Shown here: one piece after another, positions 1 to 45,195 of the stretch
How the letters are laid out: every line of letters starts with the position of its first letter
Numbering within the stretch: position 1 is the first letter of the stretch
DNA from: Armatimonadota bacterium
GTDB lineage: Bacteria > Armatimonadota > JAAZEB01
Direction of reading: 5' to 3'
Assembly: GCA_016199585.1 (NCBI GenBank)
Contig: JACQGM010000105.1
Location: 1-62,992, forward strand
DNA: 62,992 nt
Notes under the pieces: generated by a model
Told to the model about the DNA's origin: nothing
Database searches by the model: none
The model's input: the letters and a program-made list of their open reading frames with translations, nothing else
Made by a program: the position numbers and the translations under genes

Positions 1-45
1 ACATGGAAGTTTTCGCTGAGCAGTGACAAGACCCCAGTTGGGGGT

Positions 46-74
46 TGACAGATTCCCAAGCGCGTGCTACAATG
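46..74 (+). promoter_or_regulatory. sigma70-like promoter upstream of the LacI-family gene
   Basis: TTGACA (46-51), 17-nt spacer, TACAAT (69-74). It lies about 110 nt upstream of the proposed GTG start at 187. Confidence 0.55.
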
Positions 75-81
75 CGTGGAG

Positions 82-99
82 ACGATTGTCAGCAATCGT
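82..99. promoter_or_regulatory. inverted repeat, candidate LacI-type operator
   Basis: ACGATTG-N4-CAATCGT sits immediately downstream of the -10 box. That position fits autoregulation by the adjacent LacI-family protein. Confidence 0.4.
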
Positions 100-186
100 T
101 CCCGGGCGACCGACAGAGGGAAGGCGGGCTCCGCTTCTGGATCCCCTGCTCGGGAACGCCTGATCCCCGGCAAGGAGGCGCGGCGA

Positions 187-1269: not shown

Positions 1270-1382
1270 CGTGGGGGCGTGCTCACGCAGTTGTGGGGAG
1301 CAGATTCGCCGGGACAGGTTCACCCGCACGCAGGGAACGTGCCGGGAGTCCCGGTGAAGTTCGATGCCGTGAGGAGGTTCCT

Positions 1383-2174
1383 ATGTTGCAGATCAAGAAG
1401 GGTCCGGTTACTCACCGCCGAGGGATCAGGGCGTTCACCCTGATCGAATTGCTCGTCGTAATAGCGATCATCGCTATTCTGGCGGCGATTCTCTTTCCAG
1501 TCTTCTCCCGCGCGCGGGAGAGAGCCCGTGCGGCGAGCTGCCTGAACAACATGAAGCAGCTCGGCACCGCGTGGAGCATGTACATGCAGGACTATGACGC
1601 GGTGATGATCGAGCAGATCCGGCCGCCCTGCTATGCGGGCCCGGCGGGCGGCGCCCTGGCGTGTTCGGTCGCTTGGCCCGTCCTGGCGATGCCGTACGTC
1701 AAGAGCTGGGACGTCATCAAGTGCCCATCGTGGTCGGCGAGCATGCCGATGGACCGCACGCAGAACCCCGTACTCCGCAAGCCGCTCAGCTACCTCTACT
1801 CCAAGATGTGTCCGACATCCTGGTGGCTGAACCCCCAGTACACGGGCAAGCAGGGGTTCTGCACCGACTGCTTCACCCTCCCCATCACGGACGCCATGGT
1901 AGAGGATCCTTCCGGCACCCTCTGGCTGGTGGAAGGCGGGAACAGAACCACCGGGCCGCTGGAGTACCAGGTCTACTGGGCTGGCATGCAGGTCGCTTAC
2001 GAGCCGCACGCGGACTACGGCATGAACACCTACTACTCGGGTAGCTCTCTCATCGGGTGCCGGGTGGGGAACCCGCACTTCGACGGCTTCAACGCCGTGT
2101 TCGGTGACGGGCACGCCAAATGGGTGAAGTGGAAGAGCGGCACGCCACGGATGTACACTATCCAGGCAGACTGA
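1383..2174 (+). CDS. prepilin-type N-terminal cleavage/methylation domain protein (H-X9-DG / DUF1559-like pseudopilin-like)
   Basis: ORF 1260-2174 with start at ATG 1383 (GAGGAGG at 1370-1376). '[24 protein letters not shown]' is the prepilin methylation motif. The C-terminal '[13 protein letters not shown]' fits H-X9-DG exactly. Confidence 0.85.
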
Positions 2175-2187
2175 TGCCCGCCGGTGT

Positions 2188-2218
2188 CGGGGCGCCCCGC
2201 CGACCGCGGGGCGCCCCG
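2188..2218 (+). terminator. GC-rich hairpin after the pseudopilin-like gene
   Basis: The self-complementary 12-mer CGGGGCGCCCCG occurs twice (2188-2199 and 2207-2218) around a 7-nt loop. There is no clear U-tract. Confidence 0.4.
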
Positions 2219-2294
2219 TGAGCGTTCGCTAAGTGGCCGCCGGTGCCTCGTCCGTCAACTCGGGCCATCGCCCGAACGGGGAGGAACAACGCCC

Positions 2295-3809: not shown

Positions 3810-3834
3810 GATGTGTTGAGAGAGGAGAGAACCG

Positions 3835-4383
3835 ATGCGACGAACGGCGCTCTGCGCCGGTCTGGCAATCCTGACCTGGGCGTGCCTCGGAATCCCCGGG
3901 GAGGCCCAGATTCCTACACGGGAGGCACGCGTGAGAGATTCCAGCCTGAATCCGGAGTACGTCACCTGGCGGTCTGCGCCCCTGCAACTGGAACCGATCG
4001 AGCCGCCGAAGGAGAGAGAGGCGCCGCTCCTCGCCTGCTACCGCAAGGAGTTCACGCTGCCGGCCGCCGCACGCCAGGCGGCGTTGACGGTGTACCTGCA
4101 GACGAGCCGCACCACTGCCCCTTACTGGATCACTGTGAATGGGCAGGCCCTCTCCGAGCCCCGTGAGGGCGCCCTACAGCTCGCGGGCCTCACCAACCTG
4201 GACGCAACGAAGGTGCTGCGCGCAGGTCGCAACGTCATCACCGTCAAACGCGCATGCACCCTCCCCGCTCAGGCATGGCTCACGGTGGAGGGCATCGTCT
4301 TCTGCGAGGATGGGAGCACCCGCCGCGGCGGCGGCGGATTACGGCGCTGGCGTCGCATTGACAAGAATCCGTCCGCCTGCTAG
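3835..4383 (+). CDS. truncated 5' paralog of the giant proteins at 8039 and 11706 (signal peptide plus beta-sandwich domain only); possibly a gene remnant
   Basis: GAGAGGAGAG RBS and ATG 3835. 'GIPGEAQIPT..SLNPEYVTWRSAPLQL..CYRKEFTLPAAARQAALTVY..VNGQAL..LTNLD..EGIVFCEDGST' aligns residue for residue with the N-termini of the large paralogs. Similarity ends near 4320, and an unrelated Arg/Gly tail then runs to TAG 4381-4383. Confidence 0.6.
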   Translation: MRRTALCAGLAILTWACLGIPGEAQIPTREARVRDSSLNPEYVTWRSAPLQLEPIEPPKEREAPLLACYRKEFTLPAAARQAALTVYLQTSRTTAPYWITVNGQALSEPREGALQLAGLTNLDATKVLRAGRNVITVKRACTLPAQAWLTVEGIVFCEDGSTRRGGGGLRRWRRIDKNPSAC

Positions 4384-4386
4384 TAT
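4358..4386 (+). promoter_or_regulatory. sigma70-like promoter for the GNAT gene
   Basis: TTGACA (4358-4363), 17-nt spacer, TAGTAT (4381-4386). It overlaps the last codons of the truncated paralog. Confidence 0.5.
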
Positions 4387-4435
4387 AGGGCACGGACCGC
4401 CAGAGAGGGAGAGAGGGGGGCGGACGAGGAGGAAC

Positions 4436-4984
4436 ATGCCGACAGACGAAGGCCGGTTCGTAGAGGAGTGGGAGAGGGACGGGCGCCGGATCACGATCCG
4501 CACTGCCCGGTGGAGTGACCTGGACAGCTACGCCGAGATGCACCGAACGCTCTATCAGGAGCGGGTCATGGCCGCCCCTCGCAACGCCGACATGCGGGTG
4601 GGCGGGGAGCTTCTGGGAAAGATGCTCACCCATGACGCCGCGGGCACCGGGATCCTGCTCGTGGCGGAAGCGGACGGGCGCATCGTCGCCGAGGGGACGC
4701 TCACCCCTTCGCACGGCGACCGCAGCATCACCCTCGGTCTGCTGGTCTTGCGCGAGTACCGCGACATGGGCATCGGCCGGCGCCTGATGCGTGCCCTCGA
4801 AGTCGAGGCGCGGCGCCTCGGCAAGGAGCGGATGGATCTCACCGTCTGGAGCGCCAACCCGAGGGCCTACCACCTCTACACCAGCATGGGATACCGGGAG
4901 ATGGGACGCTTCCCCCGGTGGATCCGGTCCGACCTGGCGCCCACCGGGATCTCGGATCTCGTCTGGATGATCAAGGATCTGTAG
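4436..4984 (+). CDS. GNAT-family N-acetyltransferase
   Basis: ORF 4139-4984 with start at ATG 4436 (GAGGAGGA upstream). It carries a GNAT acetyl-CoA-binding-like core, 'LLVLREYRDMGIGRRLMRALEVEARRLG'. Confidence 0.75.
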   Translation: MPTDEGRFVEEWERDGRRITIRTARWSDLDSYAEMHRTLYQERVMAAPRNADMRVGGELLGKMLTHDAAGTGILLVAEADGRIVAEGTLTPSHGDRSITLGLLVLREYRDMGIGRRLMRALEVEARRLGKERMDLTVWSANPRAYHLYTSMGYREMGRFPRWIRSDLAPTGISDLVWMIKDL

Positions 4985-4985
4985 C

Positions 4986-5216
4986 ATGGCGATCATCGGC
5001 CTGGACGTGGGCACCTCGCGGCGCAAGGGCACCCGGGCGCTGGCGGGCGCCGGGGCCGCCGAAGCCCTCCTCCGCGCCGAGATGGAGACCTCCCCCGTGG
5101 CGCCGTTCCAACCCCGCCCGGAGACCGAGGGCCTCGCCGAGGATGCGTATGCCCGCTACCGGCGCCTGGCCGAATGGGTGGCCGCAGAGCGGGCGCTGAG
5201 AGCGGATGATGCTTGA
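4986..5216 (+). CDS. small hypothetical ORF (76 aa), possibly a remnant of an ASKHA/actin-fold ATPase N-terminus
   Basis: It begins 'MAIIGLDVGTS', which resembles the phosphate-1 motif of sugar-kinase/actin-fold ATPases, but the ORF is far too short for that fold. It starts 1 nt after the GNAT stop. Confidence 0.3.
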   Translation: MAIIGLDVGTSRRKGTRALAGAGAAEALLRAEMETSPVAPFQPRPETEGLAEDAYARYRRLAEWVAAERALRADDA

Positions 5217-5302
5217 CCGGCGGGATCCCGCGGGGGAGCGCGCTGCGCTGGTCGCGTGGCTGTACGGCCGGCGACGAGTCGCCGGCCCGGGAAGGAAAGA
5301 GC

Positions 5303-6130
5303 ATGACGGAAGCCTCGCCCGACCCGGCGCGGATGCGCCGGGAGTTCCAAACCGCTGTCGCTGCCCTGGGCTTCGTTGACATCAACGCCTGGGTAGGGAG
5401 CCATCCCGACCCCCTGCGGCCGGCGGAGACCTCTCTCCCCGCGCTGGCCGCGGCCGCAGCCGATGCGGGGATCCGCGAGATGGTGGTCTCGCACACGGAG
5501 TGCGTCTTCGCGGATCCCTGTGAGGGCAACGCTCTCCTCCTGGACGCCGTGGAGGCGAGCGGCGGAGCCGGCATCTCTCTCTGCGCGGGCATCTGCCTGC
5601 TCCCGGAAGGTGAGCTGCCGGGATCGGCGGGGACTTACCTGGATGCGTGCCTTGCCAGGGGCGCTCGCCTGGTCCGGCTCTTCCCCAAGAGCCACCGCTT
5701 CCCTTTGGCCGAATGGTGCTGCGGCGGCGTGCTGGCGGCGCTGGAGGAGCGCCGGCTCCCCCTGATGGTGGGGCACGTGGAGACCTCCTGGTCGGAGCTG
5801 CACGCCCTCTGCGAGCGCCACCCGGACCTACCCGTGATCATTGACGGCGCGGAACAGAAGCTCTTCTATCACAACCGCCCCGTGGAGGCGCTGCTCCGCG
5901 CGCACCCGAACCTCTACGTGGAGTCGCACAACCTGGTACACTTCCTCGGCCTGGACCACCTGGCGCGCCGGGTGGGCGCCGGGCGGTTCCTGTTCGGGTC
6001 CGGGATGCCGCAGAGGGATCCCGCGGCCGCGCTCGCGTGCGTGGCCCTCGCGGATCTGCCGGATGCCGACCGCGCGGCGATCGCTCGCGGCAATTGGCGC
6101 AGGTTGATGGAGGAGGTGCGCACGCCATGA
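5303..6130 (+). CDS. amidohydrolase-family (TIM-barrel metal-dependent hydrolase) protein
   Basis: ORF 5213-6130 with start at ATG 5303 after GGAAGGAAAGAG. 'FVDINAWVG' and the C-terminal 'FLFGSGMPQRDP' resemble the amidohydrolase_2 family. Confidence 0.6.
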   Translation: MTEASPDPARMRREFQTAVAALGFVDINAWVGSHPDPLRPAETSLPALAAAAADAGIREMVVSHTECVFADPCEGNALLLDAVEASGGAGISLCAGICLLPEGELPGSAGTYLDACLARGARLVRLFPKSHRFPLAEWCCGGVLAALEERRLPLMVGHVETSWSELHALCERHPDLPVIIDGAEQKLFYHNRPVEALLRAHPNLYVESHNLVHFLGLDHLARRVGAGRFLFGSGMPQRDPAAALACVALADLPDADRAAIARGNWRRLMEEVRTP

Positions 6131-6900
6131 TCGTTGACTCTCATACCCACATCGGCCTGATGGCCAGCTTCCGCTACGAGGCGCGCTCGGTGAGCGACAT
6201 CCTGGCCGCCTGCGACCGGGCCGGCATCCACACGCTGCTGGCGTGTCACCACCTTGACCTGGTCTACGGGCCGCGGGCGGGTGAAGAGGCGATGCGCCGG
6301 GCCTACGAGGAGTCCGGCGGCCGCATCCTGGCCTACTGCGGCTTCGACCCGCGTCTCCCCGATTCGGCCTCGGTGGGAGAGCGGCTCCTCTCCGCGCCTC
6401 CCTACGTGGGGATCAAGATCCATCCGGTGTTCCATGCGACGCCCGCCGAGGATCCCCGCTACGCCGACGCCTTCGCCCTCGCCCGCGACGCAGGGGTGCC
6501 CCTGATGTCGCACACCTGGTACCGCTCCGCTTACAACCCCCCCCAGGCGCTCAGCCTCCCCGAGCGCTTCCGCGGGCACGTGGAGCGGTTCCCGGAGGTG
6601 CGCTTCATCCTGGGGCACGGCGGCGGCGGTCTGGACGGCCTGGGCTCCGCCATCGAGATGATGCGTACCTACCCGAACGTCCATGCCGACCTCGCCGGGG
6701 ACGTCTACGAGCGCGGCATGATCCGCCGGCTGGCGGAGGCCGCCGGGCCGGAGCGCATCCTCTTCGCCAGTGATATCCCCTGGCTGGACCCCCGCGCGCA
6801 GCTCGGGTGCGTGCTGGCCTCAGGGCTTCCAGACGACGCCCTCCGCCTCATTCTCGGCGGGAACGCGTGCCGGATCTTCCGCATCCCGCAGGGCGCGTGA
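6127..6900 (+). CDS. amidohydrolase-family (amidohydrolase_2-like) protein
   Basis: ATG 6127 overlaps the upstream TGA (ATGA), which suggests translational coupling. 'MIVDSHTHIG', 'IKIHPVFH', 'FILGHGGGG' and 'ILFASDIPWLDP' look like metal-ligand motifs. Confidence 0.75.
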   Translation: MIVDSHTHIGLMASFRYEARSVSDILAACDRAGIHTLLACHHLDLVYGPRAGEEAMRRAYEESGGRILAYCGFDPRLPDSASVGERLLSAPPYVGIKIHPVFHATPAEDPRYADAFALARDAGVPLMSHTWYRSAYNPPQALSLPERFRGHVERFPEVRFILGHGGGGLDGLGSAIEMMRTYPNVHADLAGDVYERGMIRRLAEAAGPERILFASDIPWLDPRAQLGCVLASGLPDDALRLILGGNACRIFRIPQGA

Positions 6901-6953
6901 GGACGGGACACCGCGCAAGACGAGCCTTGGGGCCGATCTGGGGGTCGGAGTCG

Positions 6954-7000
6954 TTCGTAGTGGCTGGCTTCCAGCCGGCTGAACCCGGCCACTACGAACG
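6954..7000 (+). terminator. hairpin downstream of the amidohydrolase pair
   Basis: GTTCGTAGTGGCTGG (6954-6968) pairs with CCGGCCACTACGAAC (6986-7000). There is one wobble position and a 17-nt loop. Confidence 0.45.
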
Positions 7001-7090
7001 CAGAAATGCGCTACTCTTTTCTCAACATCACCAACCGCCGGGCGCGCCGGCCATGACTTCCAGGGCCCTCTCGGAACCAGGAGGTGGTAG

Positions 7091-7837
7091 ATGAGCTTCA
7101 CACAGGAGATGAAGGCGTTCGCAGCGCAGGCAGGCGCGGATCTGGTCGGCGTGGCGCCGGTGGCGCGCTACGCGGGGGCGCCGGAGCTCTTCCACCCACA
7201 GCGGCTTCTCCCCCAGACGAAGTGCGTGGTGTGCATCGCCATCCGGCACCTGCACGGCGTGCTCGTGCCGCAGAACGACCGCGTGGAGCTATACCCCTAC
7301 CAGATGTTCGGCTACGGCTGGCTCAGCAACATCCGCCTGAACATGGTCGCCTTCGAGGTCGCCCGCTTCCTGGAGGACCGCGGATACCTGAGCTGTCCCT
7401 ACCCCTCCTTTCACCAGGGCGACAACGCGCGCCTCTCTCTCCGTCACACCGCGGTGGTGGCCGGACTCGCGACCCTCGGCTGGAACAACCTGGCGATCAC
7501 CCCGAAGTACGGCACCAAGCAGCGGTTCGTGGCCGTGCTCACCTCGGCGGAGCTGGAGCCGGACCCGATGATCGAGGATGACCCGTGCGACCGGTGCATG
7601 GCGTGCGCGAATGCCTGCCCGGTGGGGGCGATCCCCCGCGACGAGGAGATCGCCTATGAGATTGCCGGGCACCCCGTGCGCGTGGCGAAGCTGGACAAGA
7701 AGAAGTGTAACGACTGCCATTTGGGCAAGGGTGGGTGGTTCGAGAACCAGTATCCCCCCTTCGTCACCTTCACGGTGGCCGGACACTGCGGCCGGTGCCT
7801 CATCAACTGTCCGAAGGGCACCTACGCGCCCGCCTGA
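7091..7837 (+). CDS. 4Fe-4S dicluster domain protein (epoxyqueuosine-reductase/dehalogenase-like fold)
   Basis: AGGAGGTGG RBS. It has the ferredoxin-type motif 'CDRCMACANACPVGAIP' plus a second Cys cluster, 'CNDCH...GHCGRCLINCP'. Confidence 0.6.
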   Translation: MSFTQEMKAFAAQAGADLVGVAPVARYAGAPELFHPQRLLPQTKCVVCIAIRHLHGVLVPQNDRVELYPYQMFGYGWLSNIRLNMVAFEVARFLEDRGYLSCPYPSFHQGDNARLSLRHTAVVAGLATLGWNNLAITPKYGTKQRFVAVLTSAELEPDPMIEDDPCDRCMACANACPVGAIPRDEEIAYEIAGHPVRVAKLDKKKCNDCHLGKGGWFENQYPPFVTFTVAGHCGRCLINCPKGTYAPA

Positions 7838-8038
7838 CGCCCATCGGCCTTCGGGCACCGGCGGCGTGCTCGCGCCAACCTGCCACGCACCGAGTGGGCA
7901 GAAGGGAATGCGGAGGTGACGCGCAGAAGTTGGTTGAGGAGAACGATCAAATACGGATGAGCCCTTCTGTCCAGCTTGGAGCCGGCGACCGCTCCGACTG
8001 CCCCGGGTCGGGCTCGGACGCCCACACAGGAGAAACGA

Positions 8039-11000
8039 ATGCCCGACTTGAGTCTCACCCCCGAGTACGCTACCTGGCGATCCGCGCGCCTGCAGCTGCC
8101 GCAAGCGCCCGTACCCGAGGAGGGCGCCCCGCGCCTCTCCGCGTGCTACCGGAAGGAGTTCACGCTGCCCGCCGCGCCCCGGCAGGCGGCGCTGACTCTC
8201 TACATCCACGGCAGCCGCGCCTATTGGTTCGCGGTGAATGGCCGGCCGCTGCTGGAGCCGCGCGAGGACGCCCTGCAGCTCGGGGGCCTGACGAACCTGG
8301 ACGTGACCGAGGCGCTGCGCGCCGGGAAGAACGTGCTCACTTTCCGCGCCGAGTGCCAGGGCGCATCCCAGGGATCAGTCACCATCGAGGGCATCGTCTT
8401 CTGCGAGGATGGCACTACCTACCGCATCCTCTCCGACGGCTGGCAGGGCGGCTGGAACGCCCCCAAGGGTTGGGACGGGCCTGACGCCGCGCCGCAGAGC
8501 CTGGCGCCCCTGCCTGCCGGCGAGCCGCTGCGGGGCACGCCGGACAGTGTCTTCCCCCGCCCCTACTACGGCCCGATTCAGGTGACGCCCGTCTGCCCGG
8601 CCGGCAAGGCGATGAGCCAGCCGGTCTTCGACGAGGAAGCCGCCATCCTCCTGAAAGTGACACTGCCGAACCAGCAGGCGAGTGCGCGGGCACCCGTGCT
8701 CACGGCGGAGGTTGTGAACGAGTTCATCGGTGAGGACCTGGGCACTCGGACGGTGCCGCTCGCCCCCGAGGGGAAGCTGGACCTGGCGGGCACCCTCGAT
8801 CTGGGCCGATACGCCAGGGGCGCCTACCGCCTCCGATTCCGCCTGGCGGACGGCGACGAGGAGGTGGACCGCCGCGACTACGAGGTGGCCGTCGTCGGTG
8901 AGATCCCGCAGCGCCTGGTGGAGGGCACCGACTACGAGGACGGACTCGACCTGAGGGAGGTCTACAGCATAGACTGCACGGCGCCAACCAGCCCCGAGAC
9001 GTTCGTGGCGAGCCATACCCAGTGGGGAGCGAAGTCGAACGAGTGGAAGGAAGTGGAGACGCGTGTGGTGACCGGGCCGGCGGGCCGCTATCGCGTCCTG
9101 GCGGAGACGACGAGCATGTTGTACTTCGCCTACAAGTACAAGGTGAAGAAGCTCTACGTGCCGCACCTGGCCGTGGTGGAATGGCCCGACGATGCCAGGC
9201 GCAACTTCATCGTTCATGTGGCCGAGCGTGCCAGTGGCTACCCTGAATCCGATCCCGATCCCGTTACGCGGCTCAAAGACTTCCACATGCCCGGCGGGGT
9301 GGAACTCCTCGGGACTACCGACTACGGGTCCTTCCGGAGCGTGGGGTTCCAGCGCTCCGAGGCCGGGCTCGTGGCGCAGCACGACCAGCACCCCGTCCGC
9401 AGCAACAAGCTGCAGAAGCTGCACCTCCTCTTCTGGCCGAACTCGGAGGAGGGCTCCGTCCACGTCTGCAACGTGGATGGAGGGGATGAGCCGGCCGCAG
9501 CCGCCCGCGTCACCATCTATGAGATCACCAACGACTTGCCGGCACTGCGCATCGCGGATGCCGGGGACCGTCTGATCGGTCCCCACACCGAGCGCGGCCC
9601 GGCCACCATGTCGAGCACCTACTACTCGGGCCCCTTGGGGTCGTACTTCACCTCGCACCTGGGCGCGCGGGACCATCCGGAGTTCTACCGCGACTGGTAC
9701 ACGACGACGGAGAACTGGATCAAGCGGGCGCGCTTCTCCGGGCAGAACTTCTACCTGATGGGCCACTTCATGTACCAGGGCACGCTCTACCCCTCACGCC
9801 TGTCGCGCTACGGCTTCAACCAGAACAAGTACGGCGGAGGCGACGTCATCCGCGACTACGCCGGGCTCATTCTTCGCATGTTCGAGCGCAACGGCATGGC
9901 GATGGTTTCGGGCATCGAGTTCTTTTCCGTGCCGGCATTGGTCGAGACCCAGCCGACTCCGGAGGAGATCCGCGCGGGCGAAGCGAGCCCTCTCTTCATG
10001 GTGAGCCGCCGGGGGACTCTCTTCCCGCTGCACGCCGTGATCCGGGCGGACGGCTCGTGGTGGGGCAGCGGGCGGCCAGGGCTCGATGGCCGCGTCCACT
10101 GGCCCGCCATGAACTTCATGCACCCCGGAATGCAGGAGCGCCTCCTGGCGATGGTGGGGGAGTTGGCGGACCTCTACGGGGAGTACCCCGCCTGGAAAGG
10201 CGTCGCGCTCGTCCTCTCGCGCTGCTTTGGACCGATGGAGCCGGCGCTCCTGCGCAGCGTGGACCTGTTGGAAGCGGGCTATGAGGACTACACCATTGAT
10301 CTCTTCGAGAAGGAGACCGGCACGCTCGTTCCGGTGGACGCGAAGGACCCCGAGCGCTTCGAGAAGCGCTACCAGTGGATCATGGGGAATGTGCGCGAGG
10401 GCTGGATTGACTGGCGCACGCGGAAGTACACGGAGCTGTACCGCCGCCTCGGGGAGCGGGTGGCACAGGCTCGTCCCGACGTCAAGCTGCACCTGATCGT
10501 CGGCGAGCCGATGCTCTGGCGCGGCAGCCAGGAGATCCTCGACGGGCGCTTCGATGACCTGCCGTACGCTGTGGATGTGCTGCGCCAGTTCGGGTTCGAT
10601 CTCGACAGCCTCCGGAAGGAGCCGGGGATCGTTCTCACCCAGTCCTTCCCCTCTCCCGGCTCTGGTGACGCGCGCATGACCGATGGCCATGACGGGTGGC
10701 GCGAGTTCACCCAGAACCAGGCATGGCAGTCCCTCTTCGCCAACGACAACCGCGGCGGCGCCTACGTGAAGAGCGGCTTGCAGCACTGGGGCAACTACAC
10801 CTTCCCCGAGGGGAAATGGCTCTTCCGCAACGTGCAGACCCGTCAGGGGTGGTTCTGGTCTACCTACGCCATCGAAACCTTCGTCAACACCATGGTCCGC
10901 TCCAACCCCACCTGGATCCCCCATACCTGGACGGACATCTCTGACTCCATGGGCCGCATCCAGGAACAGCGCCTCTTCGCGCGCGCCTACCGCAGCCTCC

Positions 11001-11539
11001 CGAACGGCCGGTACGAGCGTCTCACCGGCAACGGGCTGGACCGCAACCTATGGGTCTCGCGCACGCAGGCGAAGGGCGCTACTTACGCCTACGCGGCCAA
11101 CCTGCACTGGTGGGCACCGGAGGTGACGTTGCGCTTCAGCGAGGGCGCCCGGGTCCACGATCTGATCAAGGACCAGCCGGTGGCGCTGCAGGCCGGGGCC
11201 TGGGCGTTCCGGCTGGAGCCCTACCAGATCCAGAGCTTCCGTGTCAGCGGGGGCACGATCCTCTCCGCGGAGACACGGATTCCGGCGGCGGACCGCGAAT
11301 ACCTGGAAGGGGAAGTGCGCTGCACTCTGGGAGAGGCCCGGGATGTGGCAGCAGCGGCCCGCGCCCGCGAGAGGGAGTTGGCGGGCAAGGCGGGCTGGGA
11401 GGCGCTCCGCGAGCTGGAGGGCCGGATCGCGCGGGCCCAGGCCCGGCTGGACCAGGGGGACCTGGCGGGCGCCTACACGCTGATCAGCGGCGCGCTCCCC
11501 GTCGCCCGAGACCGGATTGCAGGCCTGCTGAAGCCGTAG
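8039..11539 (+). CDS. giant uncharacterized protein, paralog P1 (N-terminal rhamnosidase-N/GH2-N-like beta-sandwich, large unassigned core, helical C-terminal tail)
   Basis: ORF 7976-11539. I prefer ATG 8039 (AGGAG 8028-8032). 'CYRKEFTLPAAPRQAALTLYIHGSRAYWFAVNGRPL...LTNLDVTEALRAGKNVL' resembles sugar-binding beta-sandwich domains. It is collinear with the next gene over the whole length. No signal peptide is visible. Confidence 0.8.
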   Translation: MPDLSLTPEYATWRSARLQLPQAPVPEEGAPRLSACYRKEFTLPAAPRQAALTLYIHGSRAYWFAVNGRPLLEPREDALQLGGLTNLDVTEALRAGKNVLTFRAECQGASQGSVTIEGIVFCEDGTTYRILSDGWQGGWNAPKGWDGPDAAPQSLAPLPAGEPLRGTPDSVFPRPYYGPIQVTPVCPAGKAMSQPVFDEEAAILLKVTLPNQQASARAPVLTAEVVNEFIGEDLGTRTVPLAPEGKLDLAGTLDLGRYARGAYRLRFRLADGDEEVDRRDYEVAVVGEIPQRLVEGTDYEDGLDLREVYSIDCTAPTSPETFVASHTQWGAKSNEWKEVETRVVTGPAGRYRVLAETTSMLYFAYKYKVKKLYVPHLAVVEWPDDARRNFIVHVAERASGYPESDPDPVTRLKDFHMPGGVELLGTTDYGSFRSVGFQRSEAGLVAQHDQHPVRSNKLQKLHLLFWPNSEEGSVHVCNVDGGDEPAAAARVTIYEITNDLPALRIADAGDRLIGPHTERGPATMSSTYYSGPLGSYFTSHLGARDHPEFYRDWYTTTENWIKRARFSGQNFYLMGHFMYQGTLYPSRLSRYGFNQNKYGGGDVIRDYAGLILRMFERNGMAMVSGIEFFSVPALVETQPTPEEIRAGEASPLFMVSRRGTLFPLHAVIRADGSWWGSGRPGLDGRVHWPAMNFMHPGMQERLLAMVGELADLYGEYPAWKGVALVLSRCFGPMEPALLRSVDLLEAGYEDYTIDLFEKETGTLVPVDAKDPERFEKRYQWIMGNVREGWIDWRTRKYTELYRRLGERVAQARPDVKLHLIVGEPMLWRGSQEILDGRFDDLPYAVDVLRQFGFDLDSLRKEPGIVLTQSFPSPGSGDARMTDGHDGWREFTQNQAWQSLFANDNRGGAYVKSGLQHWGNYTFPEGKWLFRNVQTRQGWFWSTYAIETFVNTMVRSNPTWIPHTWTDISDSMGRIQEQRLFARAYRSLPNGRYERLTGNGLDRNLWVSRTQAKGATYAYAANLHWWAPEVTLRFSEGARVHDLIKDQPVALQAGAWAFRLEPYQIQSFRVSGGTILSAETRIPAADREYLEGEVRCTLGEARDVAAAARARERELAGKAGWEALRELEGRIARAQARLDQGDLAGAYTLISGALPVARDRIAGLLKP

Positions 11540-11705
11540 CATGGCTTGGGCAGCCGCGCCGGAGAGGTTGGGGTCCTCAGGAGAGCGATCCCTCCGCCGT
11601 CGTGCGAGTGGCGCGTCCGGGAGGGGGCGCGTGCGTCTGAGACACGCGCGCCAGGCGAGGCTGCCGCTGGTGTGGCCCGGCCGCTGTCTCGCAGAAGGGA
11701 AGGGC

Positions 11706-14700
11706 ATGATGCGACGACTGGCGTTTTGGATCGGTCTGATGATGGCGATGACCAGCCCGGGAACCCCGGGCGAGGCCCAGATCCCCACACAGGAGGAACG
11801 GATGCTCAACTCAAGCCTCAGCCCTGAATACGCCACCTGGCGCTCCGGGGCGCTTCAGTTGGCGCCAGCCGAGGCGCCGCCGGGGGGCCAGCCGGCGAGA
11901 CTGGCGTGCTACCGGAAGGAGATCACGCTCCCGGCAGCGCCGCGCCAGGCAGCGCTCACGGTCTACGTGCAGATGAGCCGCAGCCCGGCTCCCTACTGGT
12001 TCGCCGTGAACGGGCGGACCCTTCTCCAGCCGCGTGAAGGCGGCTTTCAGACCGGGGGTCTGGCGAACCTGGATGTCACCGGGCTGCTGCGCCCTGGCCG
12101 CAACGTGCTCACTTTCAAGCGCGAGTGCCGCGACGCGGCCCAGAGCTGGCTGGTGGTGGAGGGCATCGTCTTCTGCGAGGGCGGGAGCACCCACCGCATC
12201 CTCTCCGACGGCTGGGAGGGCGGCTGGAATGCCCCCGAGGGCTGGGACCGGACGGATGCCGTAGGGCGCGGGCTCCGCCCCGCGCCGGGCCTGGCGCCGG
12301 TGGCGGCCGCGGAGCCGCTGCGGGGCAGGCCGGGGAGCACCTTCCCGCGCCCCTACTACGGGCCGATCCAGGTGGCGCCCGCCGGCAGCGCCGGCAAGCC
12401 CGGCGCCGAGCCGATCTTCGATGAGGAGAAGCCGGTCGCCCTGGAGATCCTCCTCCTGAACGGACGGGCGGGTGGCAGGGACCCTTCGCTCACCGTCGAG
12501 GTGATGGACGAGTTCTCCCGGAATCCTCTGGGGCAGCGCACCATCTCCCTGGCGCCGCAGGGAGAGCGCGACCTGGCCGGCGCCCTGGATCTCGGCAAGC
12601 TGGCGAAGGGCGCCTACCGCTGCCGCTTCCTCCTCAAAGAGGGCGGCGCGGATGTGGACCGCCGCGACTACGAGGTGGCCGTCGTCGGCGAGATCAAGCA
12701 GCGACTGGTGGATGGCGCCAGCTACGAAGACGGGTTGGACCTGAAGGAGGTCTACAGCATAGACTGCACGGCGCCGACCACTCCCGATACGTTCGTGGCC
12801 AGCCACACGGAGTGGGGCGCCAAACCGGACGAGTGGCGCGAGGTGGAGACGCGCTTGGCGGAGGGTCCCGCGGGCCGTTACCGCGTGCTGGTGGAGCCCA
12901 CGCGCATGCTCTTCTTCGCCTACAAGTACCGGGTGAAGAAGCTGTACGCGCCGCACCTGGCGGTGGTGGAGTGGCCGGACGACGCCCGCCGCAACTTCAT
13001 CGTCCACCTCAAGGAGCCGGGGAGCATCAGCAGCCAGAACTCCGGGTTCCAGCGGTCGGAGGCGGGCCTCGTCACCGATGACGACCGGCATCCGACCCGC
13101 AGCAACCGGATGCAGAAGCTGCACCTCCTCTTCTGGCCCAACTCCGAGGAAGGCTCCATTCACGTCTGCAACGTGGGCGGGGGAGAGGCGCCCGCCGCGG
13201 CGGCGCGCATCACCGTCTACGAGATCGCCAACGACCTGCCCGCGCTGCGCATCGCCGACGCCGGCGACCACCTGATCGGCCCGCACACCGAGCGGGGTCC
13301 CTGGACCATGGCCAGCAACTACTACGCCGGTCCTCTGGGCGCCCAGTTCATGCAGTTCCTCGGGCCGCGAGACCACCCGGAGTATTACCGCAACTGGTAC
13401 ACGACCACGGAGAACTGGATCAAGCGGGCGCGCTTCTCCGGCCAGAACCTCTACCTGATGGGCCACTTCATGTACAAGGGCACGCTCTACCCCTCCCATC
13501 TCTCGGAATACGGCTACGACCAGAACAACTACAGCGGCGGCGATGCCGTGCGCGACTACGTGGGCCTCATCCTGCGCATGTTCGAGCGGAACGGCATGGC
13601 GATGGTCTCCGGCGTGGAGCACTTCTCCGTGCCGGGGGATACCCAGCCGACGCCCGAGGAGATCCGCAAGGGAGTCTCCACGCTCTTCTCGGTCAGCCGC
13701 GAGGGGAAGCTCTTCCCGCTCCATTCCGTCCGCCGGGCGGATGGGACCTGGGGCGGCAGCGGCCGACCGCGCGAAGACGGCACCATGAACTGGCCAGCGA
13801 TGAACTACTTCCACCCGCAGGTGCAGGAGCGGTTCCTCGCCATTGTGGGGGATCTGGCGGACCGCTACGCGCGCTACCCCGCCTGGAAGGGCGTCGCCAT
13901 CTTCCTCTCCCGCTGCTTCGGGCCGATGGAGCCCGCCCTCTTGCGCAGCGTGGACCTGCTCGAGTGCGGCTACGAGGACTACACCATTGACCTCTTCGAG
14001 AAGGAGACGGGCCTGACCGTTCCCGTGGACAAGAAGGACCCGGCTCGCTTCGAGAAACGGTATCAGTGGCTGATGGGCAAGCAGCGCCAGCGCTGGATCG
14101 ACTGGCGCTCGCGCAAGTACACGGACCTCTTCCGCCGCATGCGAGACCGCATCGCGCAAGGGAGGCCCGACGTGAAGCTCCAGCTCGTCATCGCCGAGCC
14201 GATGCTCTGGACCGGCAGCCAGGAGATCATGGACGGCCACTACGACAACGTGGCCTATATGAACGACCTGGTCCGGCGCTTCGGCTTCGACCTCGCATCC
14301 TTGAAGAACGAACCGGGTATCGTCGTCAACCAGGTGTTCGCCCTCGCCGGATCGGGAGAGGCACAGCAGACCGGGGGACACGAGGGATGGCGGGAGTTCT
14401 CCCAGAACGACGCCTGGCAGGCGCTCTTCGCGAACGACAACCAGGGCGGCGCCTACATCAAGGGGAACATTCCCCACTACGGCGCCTACACCTTCCCTCC
14501 GGGTCGCTGGATCTTCACCGGTTCCGGCACCCGCCAGGGGTGGTTCTGGTCCACCTACGTGACCGAGACGCTGGTGAACGTGATGGCGCGCTCCAACCCG
14601 ACCTGGATGCCCCATACCTGGATGGATGTCTGCGAATCGATGGGCCGTATCCAGGAGCAGCGCCTCTTCGCCCGCGCCTACCGCAGCCTCCCCGACGGCA

Positions 14701-15230
14701 AATACGAACACCTCACCGGCAGCGGCCTCGACCGCAACCTGTGGGTTTCCCGCACGCAGGCGAAGGGTGCGGAGCATGCCTACGCCGCCAACCTGAACTG
14801 GTGGACGCCGGAGGTGACGCTGCGCTTCTCCGAGGGCGCTCAGGTCCACGATCTGATCAAGGACCAGCCGCTGGCGCTGCAGGGCGGGGCGTGGACCTTC
14901 CGCCTGCCGCCCTACCAGGCGCAGAGTTTCCGGCTCACCGGGGGCCGGATCCTCTCCGCGGAAACGCAGATCCCGGCGGCGGACCGCGAGCAGGCGGAGG
15001 GCGAAGTGCGCCGGACGCTCCAGGAGGCCCGAGAGGTGGCCGCCGGGGCGCGGGCCCGGGAAGCGGAGCTGGCGGGCAAGCCGGGCTGGGAGGCGCTGCG
15101 CGAGCTGGAGGGCCGGGTGACGCGGGCGCAGGCCCAACTGGATGAGGGCGACCTGGCGGGCGCCTACACGCTGGTCAGCGGGGCGCTCCCCGTCGCCCGA
15201 GACCGGATCGCGAGCCTCCTCCAGAAGTAG
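11706..15230 (+). CDS. giant uncharacterized protein, paralog P2 (secreted)
   Basis: ORF 11541-15230. I prefer ATG 11706, which gives the signal peptide 'MMRRLAFWIGLMMAMTSPGTPGEAQ'. It is collinear with P1 and many nucleotide stretches are identical. Confidence 0.8.
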   Translation: MMRRLAFWIGLMMAMTSPGTPGEAQIPTQEERMLNSSLSPEYATWRSGALQLAPAEAPPGGQPARLACYRKEITLPAAPRQAALTVYVQMSRSPAPYWFAVNGRTLLQPREGGFQTGGLANLDVTGLLRPGRNVLTFKRECRDAAQSWLVVEGIVFCEGGSTHRILSDGWEGGWNAPEGWDRTDAVGRGLRPAPGLAPVAAAEPLRGRPGSTFPRPYYGPIQVAPAGSAGKPGAEPIFDEEKPVALEILLLNGRAGGRDPSLTVEVMDEFSRNPLGQRTISLAPQGERDLAGALDLGKLAKGAYRCRFLLKEGGADVDRRDYEVAVVGEIKQRLVDGASYEDGLDLKEVYSIDCTAPTTPDTFVASHTEWGAKPDEWREVETRLAEGPAGRYRVLVEPTRMLFFAYKYRVKKLYAPHLAVVEWPDDARRNFIVHLKEPGSISSQNSGFQRSEAGLVTDDDRHPTRSNRMQKLHLLFWPNSEEGSIHVCNVGGGEAPAAAARITVYEIANDLPALRIADAGDHLIGPHTERGPWTMASNYYAGPLGAQFMQFLGPRDHPEYYRNWYTTTENWIKRARFSGQNLYLMGHFMYKGTLYPSHLSEYGYDQNNYSGGDAVRDYVGLILRMFERNGMAMVSGVEHFSVPGDTQPTPEEIRKGVSTLFSVSREGKLFPLHSVRRADGTWGGSGRPREDGTMNWPAMNYFHPQVQERFLAIVGDLADRYARYPAWKGVAIFLSRCFGPMEPALLRSVDLLECGYEDYTIDLFEKETGLTVPVDKKDPARFEKRYQWLMGKQRQRWIDWRSRKYTDLFRRMRDRIAQGRPDVKLQLVIAEPMLWTGSQEIMDGHYDNVAYMNDLVRRFGFDLASLKNEPGIVVNQVFALAGSGEAQQTGGHEGWREFSQNDAWQALFANDNQGGAYIKGNIPHYGAYTFPPGRWIFTGSGTRQGWFWSTYVTETLVNVMARSNPTWMPHTWMDVCESMGRIQEQRLFARAYRSLPDGKYEHLTGSGLDRNLWVSRTQAKGAEHAYAANLNWWTPEVTLRFSEGAQVHDLIKDQPLALQGGAWTFRLPPYQAQSFRLTGGRILSAETQIPAADREQAEGEVRRTLQEAREVAAGARAREAELAGKPGWEALRELEGRVTRAQAQLDEGDLAGAYTLVSGALPVARDRIASLLQK

Positions 15231-15246
15231 GCGGATTCGGATCGCG

Positions 15247-15276
15247 CGAGGGGGGGAGCATCGGGATCCCCCCTCG
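15247..15276 (+). terminator. G/C-run hairpin after P2
   Basis: CGAGGGGGG (15247-15255) pairs with CCCCCCTCG (15268-15276). It starts 17 nt after the stop codon and has no U-tract. Confidence 0.4.
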
Positions 15277-15380
15277 GGCTTCGGAAAGGGTTGGCGGTGA
15301 GACGCGCACTTCTCCCCCCGGGCAATGGCCGGGACCTGCCCGACTGGGTCTACCCCATCGCGGATTGAGGCGGCGGGCCG

Positions 15381-16700
15381 ATGGATTACAGCCTGCTGAA
15401 CGAGATACGGGAAGCGCTGGCCGCCGAAGGGGCGGCGGGCGTCCTGGCTGAGCGCCTGCAGGCCCTGCGCGCCGCCGACCTCGCCGACGTGATGGAGCGC
15501 CTCAACCAGGAGGAGCGCCGGTCCCTCTTCCTGCTCCTCCCCGACGAGGAGGCGGGCGCGGTGCTGCAGGAGCTGGACGAGGCGGCGGCAGCCGAAGTGC
15601 TGGAGAACCTCCCCGCCGAACGCGCCTCGCGCCTGCTGGGCGGTATCCCCAGCGACGACGCCGCCGACCTGCTGCAAGACCTCCCCGACCAGGCCGCCGA
15701 CGCCCTCCTCGCCGGGATGGCGCGCGACGATGCCCGGGCCGTCCGCCAGCTCATGGAGTACCCCGAGACCACGGCCGGCGGGCGCATGACCACCGAGTTC
15801 GCCACCGTCTCCGAGGATGCCACGGTCGCGCAGGTGATCGCCGGCCTGCGCGACCAACCGCCTGCGGCGGAGACCGGCTACTACCTCTACGTGTGTGACT
15901 CCCTCGAGCGACTGAAGGGTGTGGTCTCCCTGCGCGACCTGATCGTGGCCGCCCCCGAGGCGCGCATCGGCGAGATCATGGCCCGCGAAGTCGTCAGTGT
16001 GCCGGCCGATGCCGACCAGGAAGAGGCGGCCGACCTGGTGGCCCGGTATGACCTGCTGGCCCTGCCCGTGGTGGATGCCGACCAGCGCCTGGTGGGCGTC
16101 ATCACGGTAGACGACGTGCTGGAGGTGCTGGAGGAGGAGGCCACCGAAGACATCCTGGGCCTGGCGCCGGGGTCGGAGCCCTCGCCGGCGCGATTGGCTC
16201 CGTCGTTGCGGGCGCGCTTGTCGCGCGCGGCGGCCGTGCTCCTTGCCGGGCTGGCCGCCGCGGGGCTGGTGAGCCCGGGGCAACCAGGGCTTTCGGTGCG
16301 GGCGCCGTTCCTCCTCTTCCTGCCGCTCGTATTGGCGGTCAGCGAAGTGGTCACCGCACAGGTGATGGCGGGCGTGGCGGGTGCCTTCCGCCGCGAGCTG
16401 CCCGCTGCGGCGTTGGCGCGCGCCGCCGGGCGCGAGTTGGTCGTCACGGGGATGCTCGCCGGGGGCGCCGGGCTGGCGGTCGCGGCGCTCCTCGGCCGCT
16501 GGCACGGCCTGGGTGCGGTGGGCGCCGATCTTGGGGCGGCGGTGTTCCTCGTCGCCCTCATCGCGGCCGTGATCGGCGTCGCGGCTCCCATCCTGTCGCA
16601 CCTGCTCCGTCACGACCCTTCGGCCGCTCCCGTCTCCTTGGTCGCGGCGCTCTCCGCCGTGGTCGGCGTGGCGACGTACCTGTGGGTGGTGGGGCGTTAG
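15381..16700 (+). CDS. mgtE: MgtE-family divalent cation transporter homolog (divergent membrane domain)
   Basis: It has an MgtE N-domain ('LADVMERLNQEERRSLFLLLPDEEAGAVLQEL', 'DDAADLLQDLP'), a tandem CBS region ('MTTEFATVSEDATV', 'LLALPVVDADQRLVGVITVDDVLEVLEEEATED') and a C-terminal multi-TM domain. Confidence 0.8.
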   Translation: MDYSLLNEIREALAAEGAAGVLAERLQALRAADLADVMERLNQEERRSLFLLLPDEEAGAVLQELDEAAAAEVLENLPAERASRLLGGIPSDDAADLLQDLPDQAADALLAGMARDDARAVRQLMEYPETTAGGRMTTEFATVSEDATVAQVIAGLRDQPPAAETGYYLYVCDSLERLKGVVSLRDLIVAAPEARIGEIMAREVVSVPADADQEEAADLVARYDLLALPVVDADQRLVGVITVDDVLEVLEEEATEDILGLAPGSEPSPARLAPSLRARLSRAAAVLLAGLAAAGLVSPGQPGLSVRAPFLLFLPLVLAVSEVVTAQVMAGVAGAFRRELPAAALARAAGRELVVTGMLAGGAGLAVAALLGRWHGLGAVGADLGAAVFLVALIAAVIGVAAPILSHLLRHDPSAAPVSLVAALSAVVGVATYLWVVGR

Positions 16701-45115: not shown

Positions 45116-45195
45116 ACAGATACGGCTTGGTCCGAAGCGGGGGTGTGGGCCGCTTGCCGCGGGGCGCCGGTGCCCGACCGGCTGGAGGTGGGGCG

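What the first reader, a model, noticed from the sequence alone, without database searches (positions are those of the whole stretch)
8039..15230. Tandem pair of roughly 1170-aa paralogs of unknown family (P1/P2)
Two adjacent same-strand genes are collinear over their whole length and share many identical nucleotide runs, for example CGCCGCGACTACGAGGTGGCCGTCGTCGG and GAGGTCTACAGCATAGACTGCACGGCGCC. I can only assign the N-terminal sugar-binding-like beta-sandwich. The core of about 900 residues includes 'FWPNSEEGS(V/I)HVCNV', 'NWIKRARFSGQN(F/L)YLMGHFMY', 'MFERNGMAMVSG' and 'YPAWKGVA', and might be a TIM-barrel glycosidase-like domain. The Ala/Arg/Glu-rich helical tail matches nothing I recognise. 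P1 also carries an insert of about 30 aa ('ERASGYPESDPDPVTRLKDFHMPGGVELLGTTDYGSFRS') that P2 lacks. Together with the third, truncated copy at 3835, this is an expanding lineage-specific family.
Basis: partly seen in the sequence, partly recalled or inferred. Interest (0 to 1): 0.6.

Follow-up and report, generated by a model that had tools for sequence, protein, structure and literature searches.

The report
Tandem paralogs of uncharacterised glycosidase-like family
Two neighbouring genes encode 70%-identical, roughly 1170-residue proteins from a large, unnamed family of probable sugar-chain-cutting enzymes; the family lacks the catalytic motif of its nearest known relatives, so it may be a new enzyme family, but it is not a new kind of system.

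Summary
P1 (8039-11539) and P2 (11706-15230) are collinear tandem paralogs, 70% identical in protein and 76% in DNA. A 182-codon remnant (P3) lies at 3835-4383.

An AlphaFold model of P2 (pLDDT 86) shows these domains:
- a signal peptide
- a CBM67/GH2_N-like beta-sandwich
- two more beta-sandwiches
- a (beta/alpha)8 barrel
- a GH13-like C-terminal beta-sandwich
- a helical tail

Among all Pfam families, the barrel matches only GHL10, the family of DigH and Cwp19. The match is weak and partial. GHL10's Asp-Asp motif after strand 4 is missing. The family conserves its own set instead: E529, N581, Y590, N629, D758, R781, R785, R801, D974 and N1029.

The family is not lineage-specific. An exhaustive search found 2,883 clusters, all unnamed, in Verrucomicrobiota, Armatimonadota and relatives. 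They often sit near fucosidases, sulfatases and LacI regulators. Tandem arrays arose independently in another genome.

Both copies are under purifying selection, but P1 has lost its signal peptide and P3 is truncated. This looks like gene birth and death.

Most likely these are secreted glycan-cleaving enzymes whose substrate is unknown. No characterised family matches over the full length.

The parts
8039..11539 (+). P1 coding sequence (1166 aa). It is a full-length family member with no signal peptide. AGGAG lies 6 nt upstream of the ATG.
   Evidence: All family-conserved residues are intact except 2 of the >=90% conserved columns.
7957..8038 (+). Decayed signal-peptide region of P1. The ancestral ATG at 7957 aligns with the start codons of P2 and P3 but is now out of frame (net 5-nt loss). 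An in-frame stop lies at 7958-7960.
   Evidence: DNA alignment; sequence. A contig from a public run reproduces 7918-8068 without any difference.
9236..9325 (+). P1-specific 30-aa segment (GYPESDPDPVTRLKDFHMPGGVELLGTTDY) in a variable loop of the third beta-sandwich.
   Evidence: Other members carry 8-20 residues here. P2 has the shortest loop and P1 the longest.
11706..15230 (+). P2 coding sequence (1174 aa), with an N-terminal signal peptide (MMRRLAFWIGLMMAMTSPGTPGEA|QIPT).
11883..12230 (+). P2 residues 60-175: galactose-binding-like beta-sandwich related to CBM67, Bac_rhamnosid_N and GH2_N.
   Evidence: PDB profile searches: SaRha78A CBM67 at E = 3.9e-5 and 6.8e-31 with the broad profile. 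Pfam Glyco_hydro_2_N matches weakly. AlphaFold secondary structure.
12363..13226 (+). P2 residues 220-507: two further beta-sandwich domains. The second carries the conserved PHLAVVEWPDDA motif.
   Evidence: AlphaFold model; conservation.
13263..14705 (+). P2 residues ~520-1000: (beta/alpha)8 barrel, distantly GHL10-like. It holds the family-invariant residues E529, N581, Y590, N629, E638, D758, R781, F782, R785, R801 and D974.
13977..13979 (+). Codon of Asp758 (GYEDY motif), invariant in 128 of 128 diverse members. It is the best candidate for a catalytic carboxylate. It lies about 24 residues after barrel strand 4.
14742..14969 (+). P2 residues 1013-1088: C-terminal beta-sandwich resembling domain C of GH13 enzymes. 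It holds the invariant N1029.
   Evidence: Weak profile hit to the neopullulanase C domain, E = 0.0026. Foldseek hits.
14976..15224 (+). P2 residues 1091-1173: Ala/Arg/Glu-rich helical tail (three helices). In longer relatives it links to a further C-terminal domain of about 190 aa that P1 and P2 lack.
3835..4383 (+). P3: truncated remnant holding the signal peptide and most of the N-terminal beta-sandwich. Homology ends near 4320 and the last strands of the domain are missing.

Best explanation
P1 and P2 are the products of a local tandem duplication within a widespread but entirely uncharacterised family of large, normally secreted, multi-domain carbohydrate-active proteins.

**Architecture (shown).** Each protein has a CBM67/GH2_N-like beta-sandwich, two more beta-sandwiches, a (beta/alpha)8 barrel, a GH13-like C-terminal beta-sandwich and a helical tail.

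**Relationship to known families (shown).** The barrel is a remote relative of GHL10 and of the wider alpha-galactosidase-type barrels. It has lost GHL10's Asp-Asp pair after strand 4. It has instead a family-specific insertion carrying an invariant Asp758, together with invariant or near-invariant E529, N581, Y590, N629, R781, R785, R801 and D974.

**Mechanism (inferred).** I infer that the barrel is the catalytic domain and that the protein cleaves glycosidic bonds in a complex polysaccharide outside the cytoplasm. Asp758 plus a second carboxylate (E529 or D974) would act as the catalytic pair. The conserved arginines would hold an anionic group, sulfate or carboxylate. The N-terminal sandwich would tether the glycan.

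**Substrate (inferred, weakest step).** Gene neighbourhoods point to sulfated, deoxyhexose-rich glycans. The neighbours include sulfatases, GH29 and GH95 fucosidases, a GH109-like gene and LacI or AraC regulators.

**History of the copies.** Both copies are under purifying selection. P2 is exported. P1 lost its signal peptide and restarts at an internal Met, so it is either newly cytoplasmic or beginning to decay. P3 is a dead remnant.
For: - **Paralogy.** Protein identity is 70%. dN is 0.20, dS is 0.67 and omega is 0.30.
- **Equal constraint on both copies.** P1 and P2 are equally distant from 19 outgroup members (51.9% against 52.4%). They deviate at only 2 and 4 of the conserved columns.
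- **Architecture.** The AlphaFold model has pLDDT 86 and pTM 0.89.
- **Full-length fold matches.** Foldseek returns only multi-domain glycosidases: GH78, GH13, GH2 and GH31.
- **N-terminal domain.** The family profile hits SaRha78A CBM67 at E = 6.8e-31 and fungal lectins at about 5e-20.
- **Barrel.** GHL10 is the only Pfam family hit by the core, in 14 of 21 members, with a best E of 8.5e-9. P2 scores 27.5 bits against a cut-off of 27.9. hhalign of a 100-sequence core profile against the DigH family gives E = 5e-4 over 207 columns, in register from strand 2 to strand 5. Distant relatives again hit GHL10, at HMM positions 33-228.
- **Conserved polar set.** The residue set holds in 128 diverse members.
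- **Export.** Every other aligned member has a signal peptide.
- **Carbohydrate context.** In the window there are a LacI regulator, a sulfatase, and heparinase II/III-like paralogs further along. In other genomes there are three GH29 genes, GH95, a GH109-like gene and a sulfatase next to P0003. A fucosidase, a beta-helix protein and an AraC regulator lie in L002. A GHL6/GH42M gene lies in L023. Sulfatases occur in 4 of the fetched loci and LacI regulators in 3.
- **Accessory domains.** Some members carry CBM9 or Laminin_G_3 domains.
Against: - No member is characterised. All are annotated as hypothetical.
- The GHL10 match is partial (HMM 122-226 of 311) and sits at or below Pfam's threshold.
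- The GHL10 Asp-Asp motif (HMM 161-162) aligns to hydrophobic residues. The strand-4 segment alone gives no hit.
- hhalign probability is only 31%.
- I could not inspect model coordinates, so it is not shown that the conserved residues cluster at the mouth of the barrel.
- The barrel-only model was poor (pLDDT 63), and its Foldseek hits are generic TIM-plus-sandwich enzymes with TM of about 0.25.
- Synteny is loose. One member sits next to polysaccharide-synthesis genes.
- The sample is groundwater, so a marine fucoidan substrate is unlikely as such.
Confidence: 0.6

Rival explanations
1. The proteins are non-catalytic. The barrel is a pseudo-enzyme that lost the ancestral catalytic Asp-Asp. 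The family would then act as glycan-binding, scaffolding or surface-display proteins, using the CBM67-like domain and, in relatives, CBM9 or Laminin_G domains.
For: The canonical GHL10 acid pair is absent and that position is not conserved across the family. Multiple lectin-like domains are present.
Against: An invariant Asp (128 of 128) and near-invariant Glu, Asn, Tyr and Arg residues sit in barrel loops across members that are only 22-29% identical. That pattern is typical of an active site. The genes sit beside exo-glycosidases and sulfatases in degradative loci.
Confidence: 0.15
2. The barrel carries out a different bond chemistry on an anionic glycan, such as lytic transglycosylation or beta-elimination (lyase-like), or hydrolysis of a sugar ester. 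A Tyr or Asp would serve as the base, and arginines would neutralise the charge.
For: The conserved set is rich in Arg (R781, R785, R801), together with Y590 and N581/N629. The GHL10 member Cwp19 has been reported to be a lytic transglycosylase (PMC6016235, listed). Lyase-like and sulfatase genes share the window.
Against: There is no similarity to any polysaccharide lyase or esterase family in Pfam, NCBIfam or the PDB. All structural neighbours are hydrolases or transglycosidases.
Confidence: 0.15
3. P1 and P2 are ordinary GHL10 peptidoglycan glycosidases of the DigH/Cwp19 type that act on the cell's own wall.
For: GHL10 is the only Pfam family hit.
Against: The match covers a third of the model. 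The Asp-Asp motif is missing. The proteins are three times longer and carry lectin-like domains. The genes lie in sugar-utilisation contexts, not cell-division or cell-wall contexts. The profiles find no PDB entry for the barrel region, although a Cwp19 GHL10-domain structure has been published (PMC5765458).
Confidence: 0.05
4. P1 is a pseudogene in the making. Only P2 is functional, and the apparent pair is one live gene plus two decaying copies.
For: The P1 signal-peptide region is frameshifted and the ancestral ATG is out of frame. P3 is clearly a remnant. A split copy also exists in the tandem array of another genome (698 + 484 aa).
Against: P1 keeps an uninterrupted 1166-codon ORF. It is as close to the outgroups as P2 is and deviates at only 2 conserved columns. 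It has a good Shine-Dalgarno sequence and ATG at 8039. Any loss of function must therefore be very recent, or P1 works in the cytoplasm.
Confidence: 0.25

Closest known systems
GHL10 / PF02638 (COG1649, UPF0748): E. coli DigH (YddW) and C. difficile Cwp19
   Same: Both have a (beta/alpha)8 barrel. Sequence motifs from strand 2 to strand 5 align in register: GxN...LYPS, NG-M, N/D-x-x-P-x-V-Q, KG, W-x-x-W-R. GHL10 is the only Pfam family hit by the core.
   Different: Only HMM positions ~122-226 of 311 match, at or below the gathering score. The Asp-Asp-Tyr motif after strand 4 (HMM 161-162) is replaced by hydrophobic residues. The family has an insertion of about 25 residues carrying the invariant D758. 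The proteins are about 1170 aa with five extra domains, against about 400 aa for GHL10 proteins. The gene context is glycan utilisation, not cell wall.
CBM67 / Bac_rhamnosid_N domains of GH78 alpha-L-rhamnosidases (SaRha78A, PDB 3w5m) and the tandem-domain fungal lectins (6t0q, 6kbj)
   Same: The N-terminal beta-sandwich is clearly homologous: E = 6.8e-31 to SaRha78A residues 143-285 and about 5e-20 to the lectins.
   Different: From my memory of the CBM67 paper, Asp179 and Asn180 bind calcium and rhamnose. In the alignment they fall on non-conserved small residues, so the ligand need not be rhamnose. The rest of the protein has no GH78 (alpha/alpha)6 domain.
GH2 and GH13 multi-domain glycosidases (for example neopullulanase 1j0h, beta-glucuronidases, LacZ)
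   Same: The overall layout is the same: sugar-binding-type sandwich, Ig-like sandwich, TIM barrel, then a C-terminal sandwich. They are the top Foldseek hits. There is a weak sequence hit of the C-terminal sandwich to domain C of GH13 (E = 0.0026).
   Different: Global TM-scores are only 0.2-0.38. No Pfam hit appears to Glyco_hydro_2_C or Alpha-amylase. The catalytic signatures of GH2 (NE...E) and GH13 (D/E/D) are not recognisable.

Membership tests
GHL10 (PF02638) | Score at or above Pfam's gathering threshold (27.9 bits) | tested here: inconclusive
   P2 scores 27.5 bits and P1 19.2 bits. 14 of 21 close members hit at E < 0.01, with a best of 8.5e-9. Six of the 27 hits carry a precomputed PF02638 label.
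GHL10 (PF02638) | Match over the whole 311-position domain | tested here: not met
   Only HMM 122-226 matches in P2 and 169-225 in P1. The widest match in a distant relative is 33-228. DigH matches 1-310.
GHL10 (PF02638) | Asp-Asp(-Tyr) motif at the end of barrel strand 4 (Cwp19 D195/D196, DigH D235/D236, HMM 161-162) | tested here: not met
   hhalign places DigH GVQFDDY over P2 GVAIFLS. Fragment mapping puts P2 E753 at HMM 169, so D758 lies about 12-15 positions after the motif. These columns are not conserved in 128 members.
GHL10 (PF02638) | (beta/alpha)8 barrel fold | tested here: met
   The AlphaFold model shows alternating strands and helices over residues 520-1000. Foldseek hits TIM-barrel glycosidases.
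CBM67-like galactose-binding domain | Sequence homology to a solved CBM67 | tested here: met
   E = 6.8e-31 to 3w5m residues 143-285 with profile A5, and 3.9e-5 with profile A2.
CBM67-like galactose-binding domain | Calcium- and rhamnose-binding Asp179-Asn180 of SaRha78A (residue identities recalled from memory) | tested here: not met
   In the alignment, D179 and N180 face profile consensus 'a' and 'p'. In P2 the segment reads SRSPAPYW. The residue roles come from memory, so this row is provisional.
GH2 | Glyco_hydro_2_N plus Glyco_hydro_2 plus Glyco_hydro_2_C, with the NE acid/base and Glu nucleophile | tested here: not met
   Only weak Glyco_hydro_2_N hits appear (3 of 21 members; P3 at E = 0.0012). 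Nothing matches the GH2 barrel.
Any CAZy GH or PL family (via dbCAN) | Significant dbCAN HMM or CAZy BLAST hit | not testable with these tools
   No dbCAN or CAZy library was available. Pfam, NCBIfam and PDB sequence searches gave nothing for the barrel.

The most novel reading that the evidence does not exclude
The family is a new glycoside-hydrolase (or glycan-cleaving) family with a relocated catalytic centre. It would be a GHL10-type barrel that lost the ancestral strand-4 Asp-Asp pair and rebuilt its active site around Asp758, on a family-specific insertion, together with Glu529 and an arginine cluster. Its target would be an anionic, deoxyhexose-rich polysaccharide that no known family cleaves.
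Probability: 0.3. Interest if true: 0.65.

Novelty: new variant of a known kind. Interest (0 to 1): 0.42.

Why it matters
If the barrel is active, this would define a new carbohydrate-active enzyme family with thousands of members. They occur in Verrucomicrobiota (Kiritimatiellia, Victivallales), Armatimonadota and related uncultured bacteria, which specialise in recalcitrant sulfated glycans.

The family is invisible to Pfam, NCBIfam and the PDB, so current annotation of these degraders misses a recurrent, often multi-copy gene. The loss of the ancestral catalytic pair and the gain of a new invariant Asp would be a clear case of an active site moving within a TIM barrel.

The local story is ordinary gene-family turnover: a duplication, the loss of one signal peptide, and one truncated remnant.

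Tried and rejected
- **Barrel-only fold.** I folded the barrel and C-terminal sandwich alone from a 12-sequence alignment. The model was poor (pLDDT 63), and its Foldseek hits were generic GH13/GH27 enzymes with TM of about 0.25.
- **First exhaustive search.** The first job failed because the profile exceeded 1,200 positions. I re-ran it with alignment A2.
- **DigH homolog search.** I searched for DigH homologs to build a diverse GHL10 profile. Only Enterobacterales sequences of 75-100% identity were listed, so the template profile stayed shallow (Neff 1.8). hhalign probability was 31%, and 3.7% against DigH alone.
- **PDB sequence searches.** A single sequence and three profiles gave nothing for the barrel.
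- **NCBIfam.** No hit.
- **Promoter and terminator scan.** Nothing above the shuffled expectation.
- **Flanks of the copies.** No similarity outside the coding regions.
- **Hairpin after P2.** Its fold is not significant against shuffles.
- **Expression data.** No RNA runs were found. The only runs are four groundwater metagenomes.
- **E831.** I first favoured E831 (the 'xEP' motif after a strand) as a GH-A-type acid/base. I rejected it because it is kept in only 34 of 128 diverse members.
- **GYEDY as GHL10's DDY.** I also considered that GYEDY corresponds to GHL10's DDY. Fragment mapping against the Pfam model rejected this.
- **Two context look-ups.** P0019 and P0127 were not on record.
Full report
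**Observation**

GC3-filtered ORF calling gives two adjacent plus-strand genes, at 7976/8039-11539 and 11541/11706-15230. Their products are 70% identical over 1174 aligned positions. Codon-aligned DNA identity is 76%, and third-position identity is 64%.

The longest identical runs are 35 nt.

A third ORF at 3835-4383 matches only the signal peptide and the first ~165 residues, at ~60% identity. A tblastn search finds no further remnant in the window.

P2 starts at ATG 11706, giving 1174 aa identical to the database entry P0001.

**History of the copies**

P1 and P2 are each other's closest relatives at 72% identity. The next relatives are at 57% or less. In another genome (GCA_042580905.1), three full-length copies and one split copy stand in tandem. 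Two of those copies are also 72% identical to each other. Tandem duplication is therefore recurrent and independent.

NG86 gives dN 0.198, dS 0.669 and omega 0.30. P1 and P2 are equally distant from 19 outgroup members (51.9% against 52.4%). They deviate at only 2 and 4 of the columns that are at least 90% conserved. Both have therefore been under purifying selection.

Every other aligned member begins with a signal peptide followed by the motif AQIPTxEERxRDSxLNPE. P1 does not. A DNA alignment shows that the ancestral ATG survives at 7957 but is out of frame after a net 5-nt loss. An in-frame stop lies at 7958-7960. P1 restarts at the Met that corresponds to P2 Met33, with AGGAG 6 nt upstream. 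A contig from a public groundwater run reproduces 7918-8068 exactly, so this is not an obvious assembly slip.

P3 lacks the last strands of its only domain and is a remnant. The picture is birth and death, not simple expansion.

The 30-aa 'insert' of P1 (residues 400-429) lies in a loop that varies across the family. P1 has the longest version and P2 the shortest.

**Architecture**

An AlphaFold2 model of P2, built from a 21-sequence alignment, has mean pLDDT 86 and pTM 0.89. Its secondary structure gives these domains:

| P2 residues | Domain |
|---|---|
| 1-24 | Signal peptide |
| 60-175 | First beta-sandwich |
| 220-330 | Second beta-sandwich |
| 346-507 | Third beta-sandwich |
| ~520-1000 | Alternating strand/helix (beta/alpha)8 barrel |
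| 1013-1088 | C-terminal beta-sandwich |
| 1091-1173 | Three helices |

Foldseek with the whole model returns only multi-domain glycosidases: GH78, GH13 neopullulanases, GH2 and GH31. E-values reach 1e-12, but TM-scores are only 0.2-0.38.

*N-terminal sandwich.* It is homologous to the CBM67 domain of the Streptomyces avermitilis rhamnosidase (3w5m residues 143-285). E is 3.9e-5 with the narrow profile and 6.8e-31 with a 58-sequence profile. It is also homologous to tandem-domain fungal lectins, at about 5e-20.

*C-terminal sandwich.* It weakly resembles domain C of GH13 enzymes (E = 0.0026).

*Helical tail.* It matches nothing significant. In longer relatives (1330-1400 aa) it leads into a further domain of about 190 aa that P1 and P2 lack. 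Some relatives carry CBM9 or Laminin_G_3 domains.

**The barrel**

Of 24,736 Pfam families, only GHL10 (PF02638) hits the core. P2 scores 27.5 bits against a cut-off of 27.9, and P1 scores 19.2 bits. 14 of 21 close members hit at E < 0.01, with a best of 8.5e-9. Distant relatives from Lentisphaerae and Bryobacteraceae hit GHL10 again.

NCBIfam gives nothing. No PDB sequence matches the barrel, with either a single sequence or a profile.

hhalign of a 100-sequence core profile against the E. coli DigH family gives E = 5e-4 and probability 31%. It covers 207 columns in consistent register from helix 1 to strand 5. DigH is annotated as a divisome-localised glycosyl hydrolase (PMC12288456). Cwp19 is the structurally solved GHL10 member, with Asp195 and Asp196 at strand 4 (PMC5765458).

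That Asp-Asp pair is absent here. hhalign puts DigH GVQFDDY over P2 GVAIFLS. Mapping fragments against the Pfam model places the DigH Asp-Asp at HMM 161-162. The P2 match begins at E753, which is HMM 169. The invariant D758 therefore lies 12-15 positions further on, near DigH D249.

P1 and P2 therefore fail the membership test for GHL10 on coverage and on the catalytic motif. They remain its distant relatives.

**Family size and conservation**

The word-indexed search found only 27 relatives, all hypothetical. The exhaustive HMM search found 2,883 representative clusters at E <= 1e-3 and 731 at E <= 1e-30. Many cover profile positions ~60-1160 in proteins of 1100-2600 aa. The named members are all 'hypothetical protein'.

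Genome hits come from Verrucomicrobiota (including Kiritimatiellia and Victivallales), Armatimonadota, Auribacterota, Firestonebacteria and Bryobacteraceae.

Conservation across 128 diverse members:

| Residue (P2 numbering) | Members that conserve it (of 128) |
|---|---|
| D758 | 128 |
| R785 | 128 |
| N1029 | 128 |
| N581 | 127 |
| R781 | 127 |
| E529 | 126 |
| Y590 | 125 |
| F782 | 125 |
| N629 | 124 |
| R801 | 124 |
| D974 | 117 |
| E638 | 111 |

Position 757 is Asp or Glu in 91 of 128. E831 first looked like a GH-A 'xEP' acid/base, but it is kept in only 34.

**Context**

In the window the pair follows a LacI regulator, a DUF1559/prepilin-type protein, a sulfatase, P3, a GNAT, two amidohydrolase_2 genes and a small Fe-S protein. 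It precedes mgtE.

Elsewhere, family members sit in these neighbourhoods:
- next to three GH29 fucosidases, GH95, a GH109-like gene and a sulfatase
- near an AraC regulator, sugar isomerase-like and oxidoreductase genes, a beta-helix protein and a fucosidase
- next to a GHL6/GH42M protein and an arabinose-isomerase-like gene
- once beside polysaccharide-synthesis genes

Sulfatases recur in 4 of the fetched loci and LacI regulators in 3. Synteny is loose, but the theme is glycan utilisation.

**Interpretation**

*Shown:*
- the paralogy and purifying selection on both copies
- the domain architecture
- homology of the N-terminal domain to CBM67-type modules
- a TIM barrel remotely related to GHL10 but without its catalytic pair
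- a large, unnamed family
- the carbohydrate gene context

*Inferred:*
- The barrel is catalytic.
- D758 plus E529 or D974 form the catalytic pair.
- The arginines bind an anionic group.
- The substrate is a sulfated, deoxyhexose-rich glycan.

I give the reading as a glycan-cleaving enzyme a confidence of 0.6. The rivals are a non-catalytic lectin-like protein (0.15), another bond chemistry (0.15) and an ordinary GHL10 wall hydrolase (0.05). Separately, there is about a one-in-four chance that P1 is already on the way to becoming a pseudogene.

**Verdict**

This is a real and correctly described pair. It belongs to an uncharacterised but widespread family that is a divergent variant of a known kind, the multi-domain TIM-barrel glycosidases. 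It is worth an enzymologist's attention as a candidate new CAZy family. It is not categorically new. Interest is 0.42.

Noticed in passing
window 37816-41367, 41525-45073, 52992-56648: Three further paralogs of about 1180 aa, 57-62% identical. The one copy scanned (37816-41367) carries Alginate_lyase, Heparinase II/III C-terminal and CBM_4_9 domains. This second multi-copy glycan-degrading family in the same window was not part of the finding.
   Followed up: partly
window 45127-46596, 56739-58115, 59661-61163: Three paralogs of 460-500 aa, 60-81% identical. Only a sub-threshold hit to the neutral ceramidase N-terminal domain was found. They are interleaved with the heparinase-like paralogs, which suggests that a two-gene unit was duplicated.
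   Followed up: no
L001 (GCA_042580905.1, JBHOTR010000004.1) 19-14734: Another genome carries three full-length copies of the P1/P2 family in tandem. They are followed by a copy split into 698-aa and 484-aa ORFs, probably by a frameshift or as a decaying copy.
   Followed up: partly
window 4358-4386: The only sigma-70-like promoter match in 3600-15600 (10 of 12 hexamer positions, with an extended TG). It lies at the 3' end of the P3 remnant's ORF, upstream of the GNAT domain region.
   Followed up: no
window 5213-6130 and 6037-6900: Two adjacent amidohydrolase_2 genes, 26% identical, whose longest ORFs overlap by about 90 nt. They lie just upstream of a 248-aa protein with a 4Fe-4S dicluster motif (7091-7837), which immediately precedes P1.
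   Followed up: no
window 1260-2174: A protein with a prepilin-type N-terminal methylation motif and a DUF1559 domain. From my own knowledge, this gene type is abundant in Planctomycetota, Verrucomicrobiota and Armatimonadota. It is the best clue in the window to the source organism. The matching runs are groundwater metagenomes.
   Followed up: no
window 15249-15276: A 10-bp G/C hairpin (GAGGGGGGGA...UCCCCCCUC) lies 19 nt after the P2 stop codon, without a T-run. No comparable hairpin follows P1. The fold is not significant against shuffles (z = -1.6).
   Followed up: partly
family members P0009, P0014-P0019, P0021-P0024: The longer relatives (1330-1400 aa) continue past the helical tail into a domain of about 190 aa that begins with a conserved 'EALEAIPFLVLGPFG' motif. 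P1, P2 and their closest relatives end before it.
   Followed up: no
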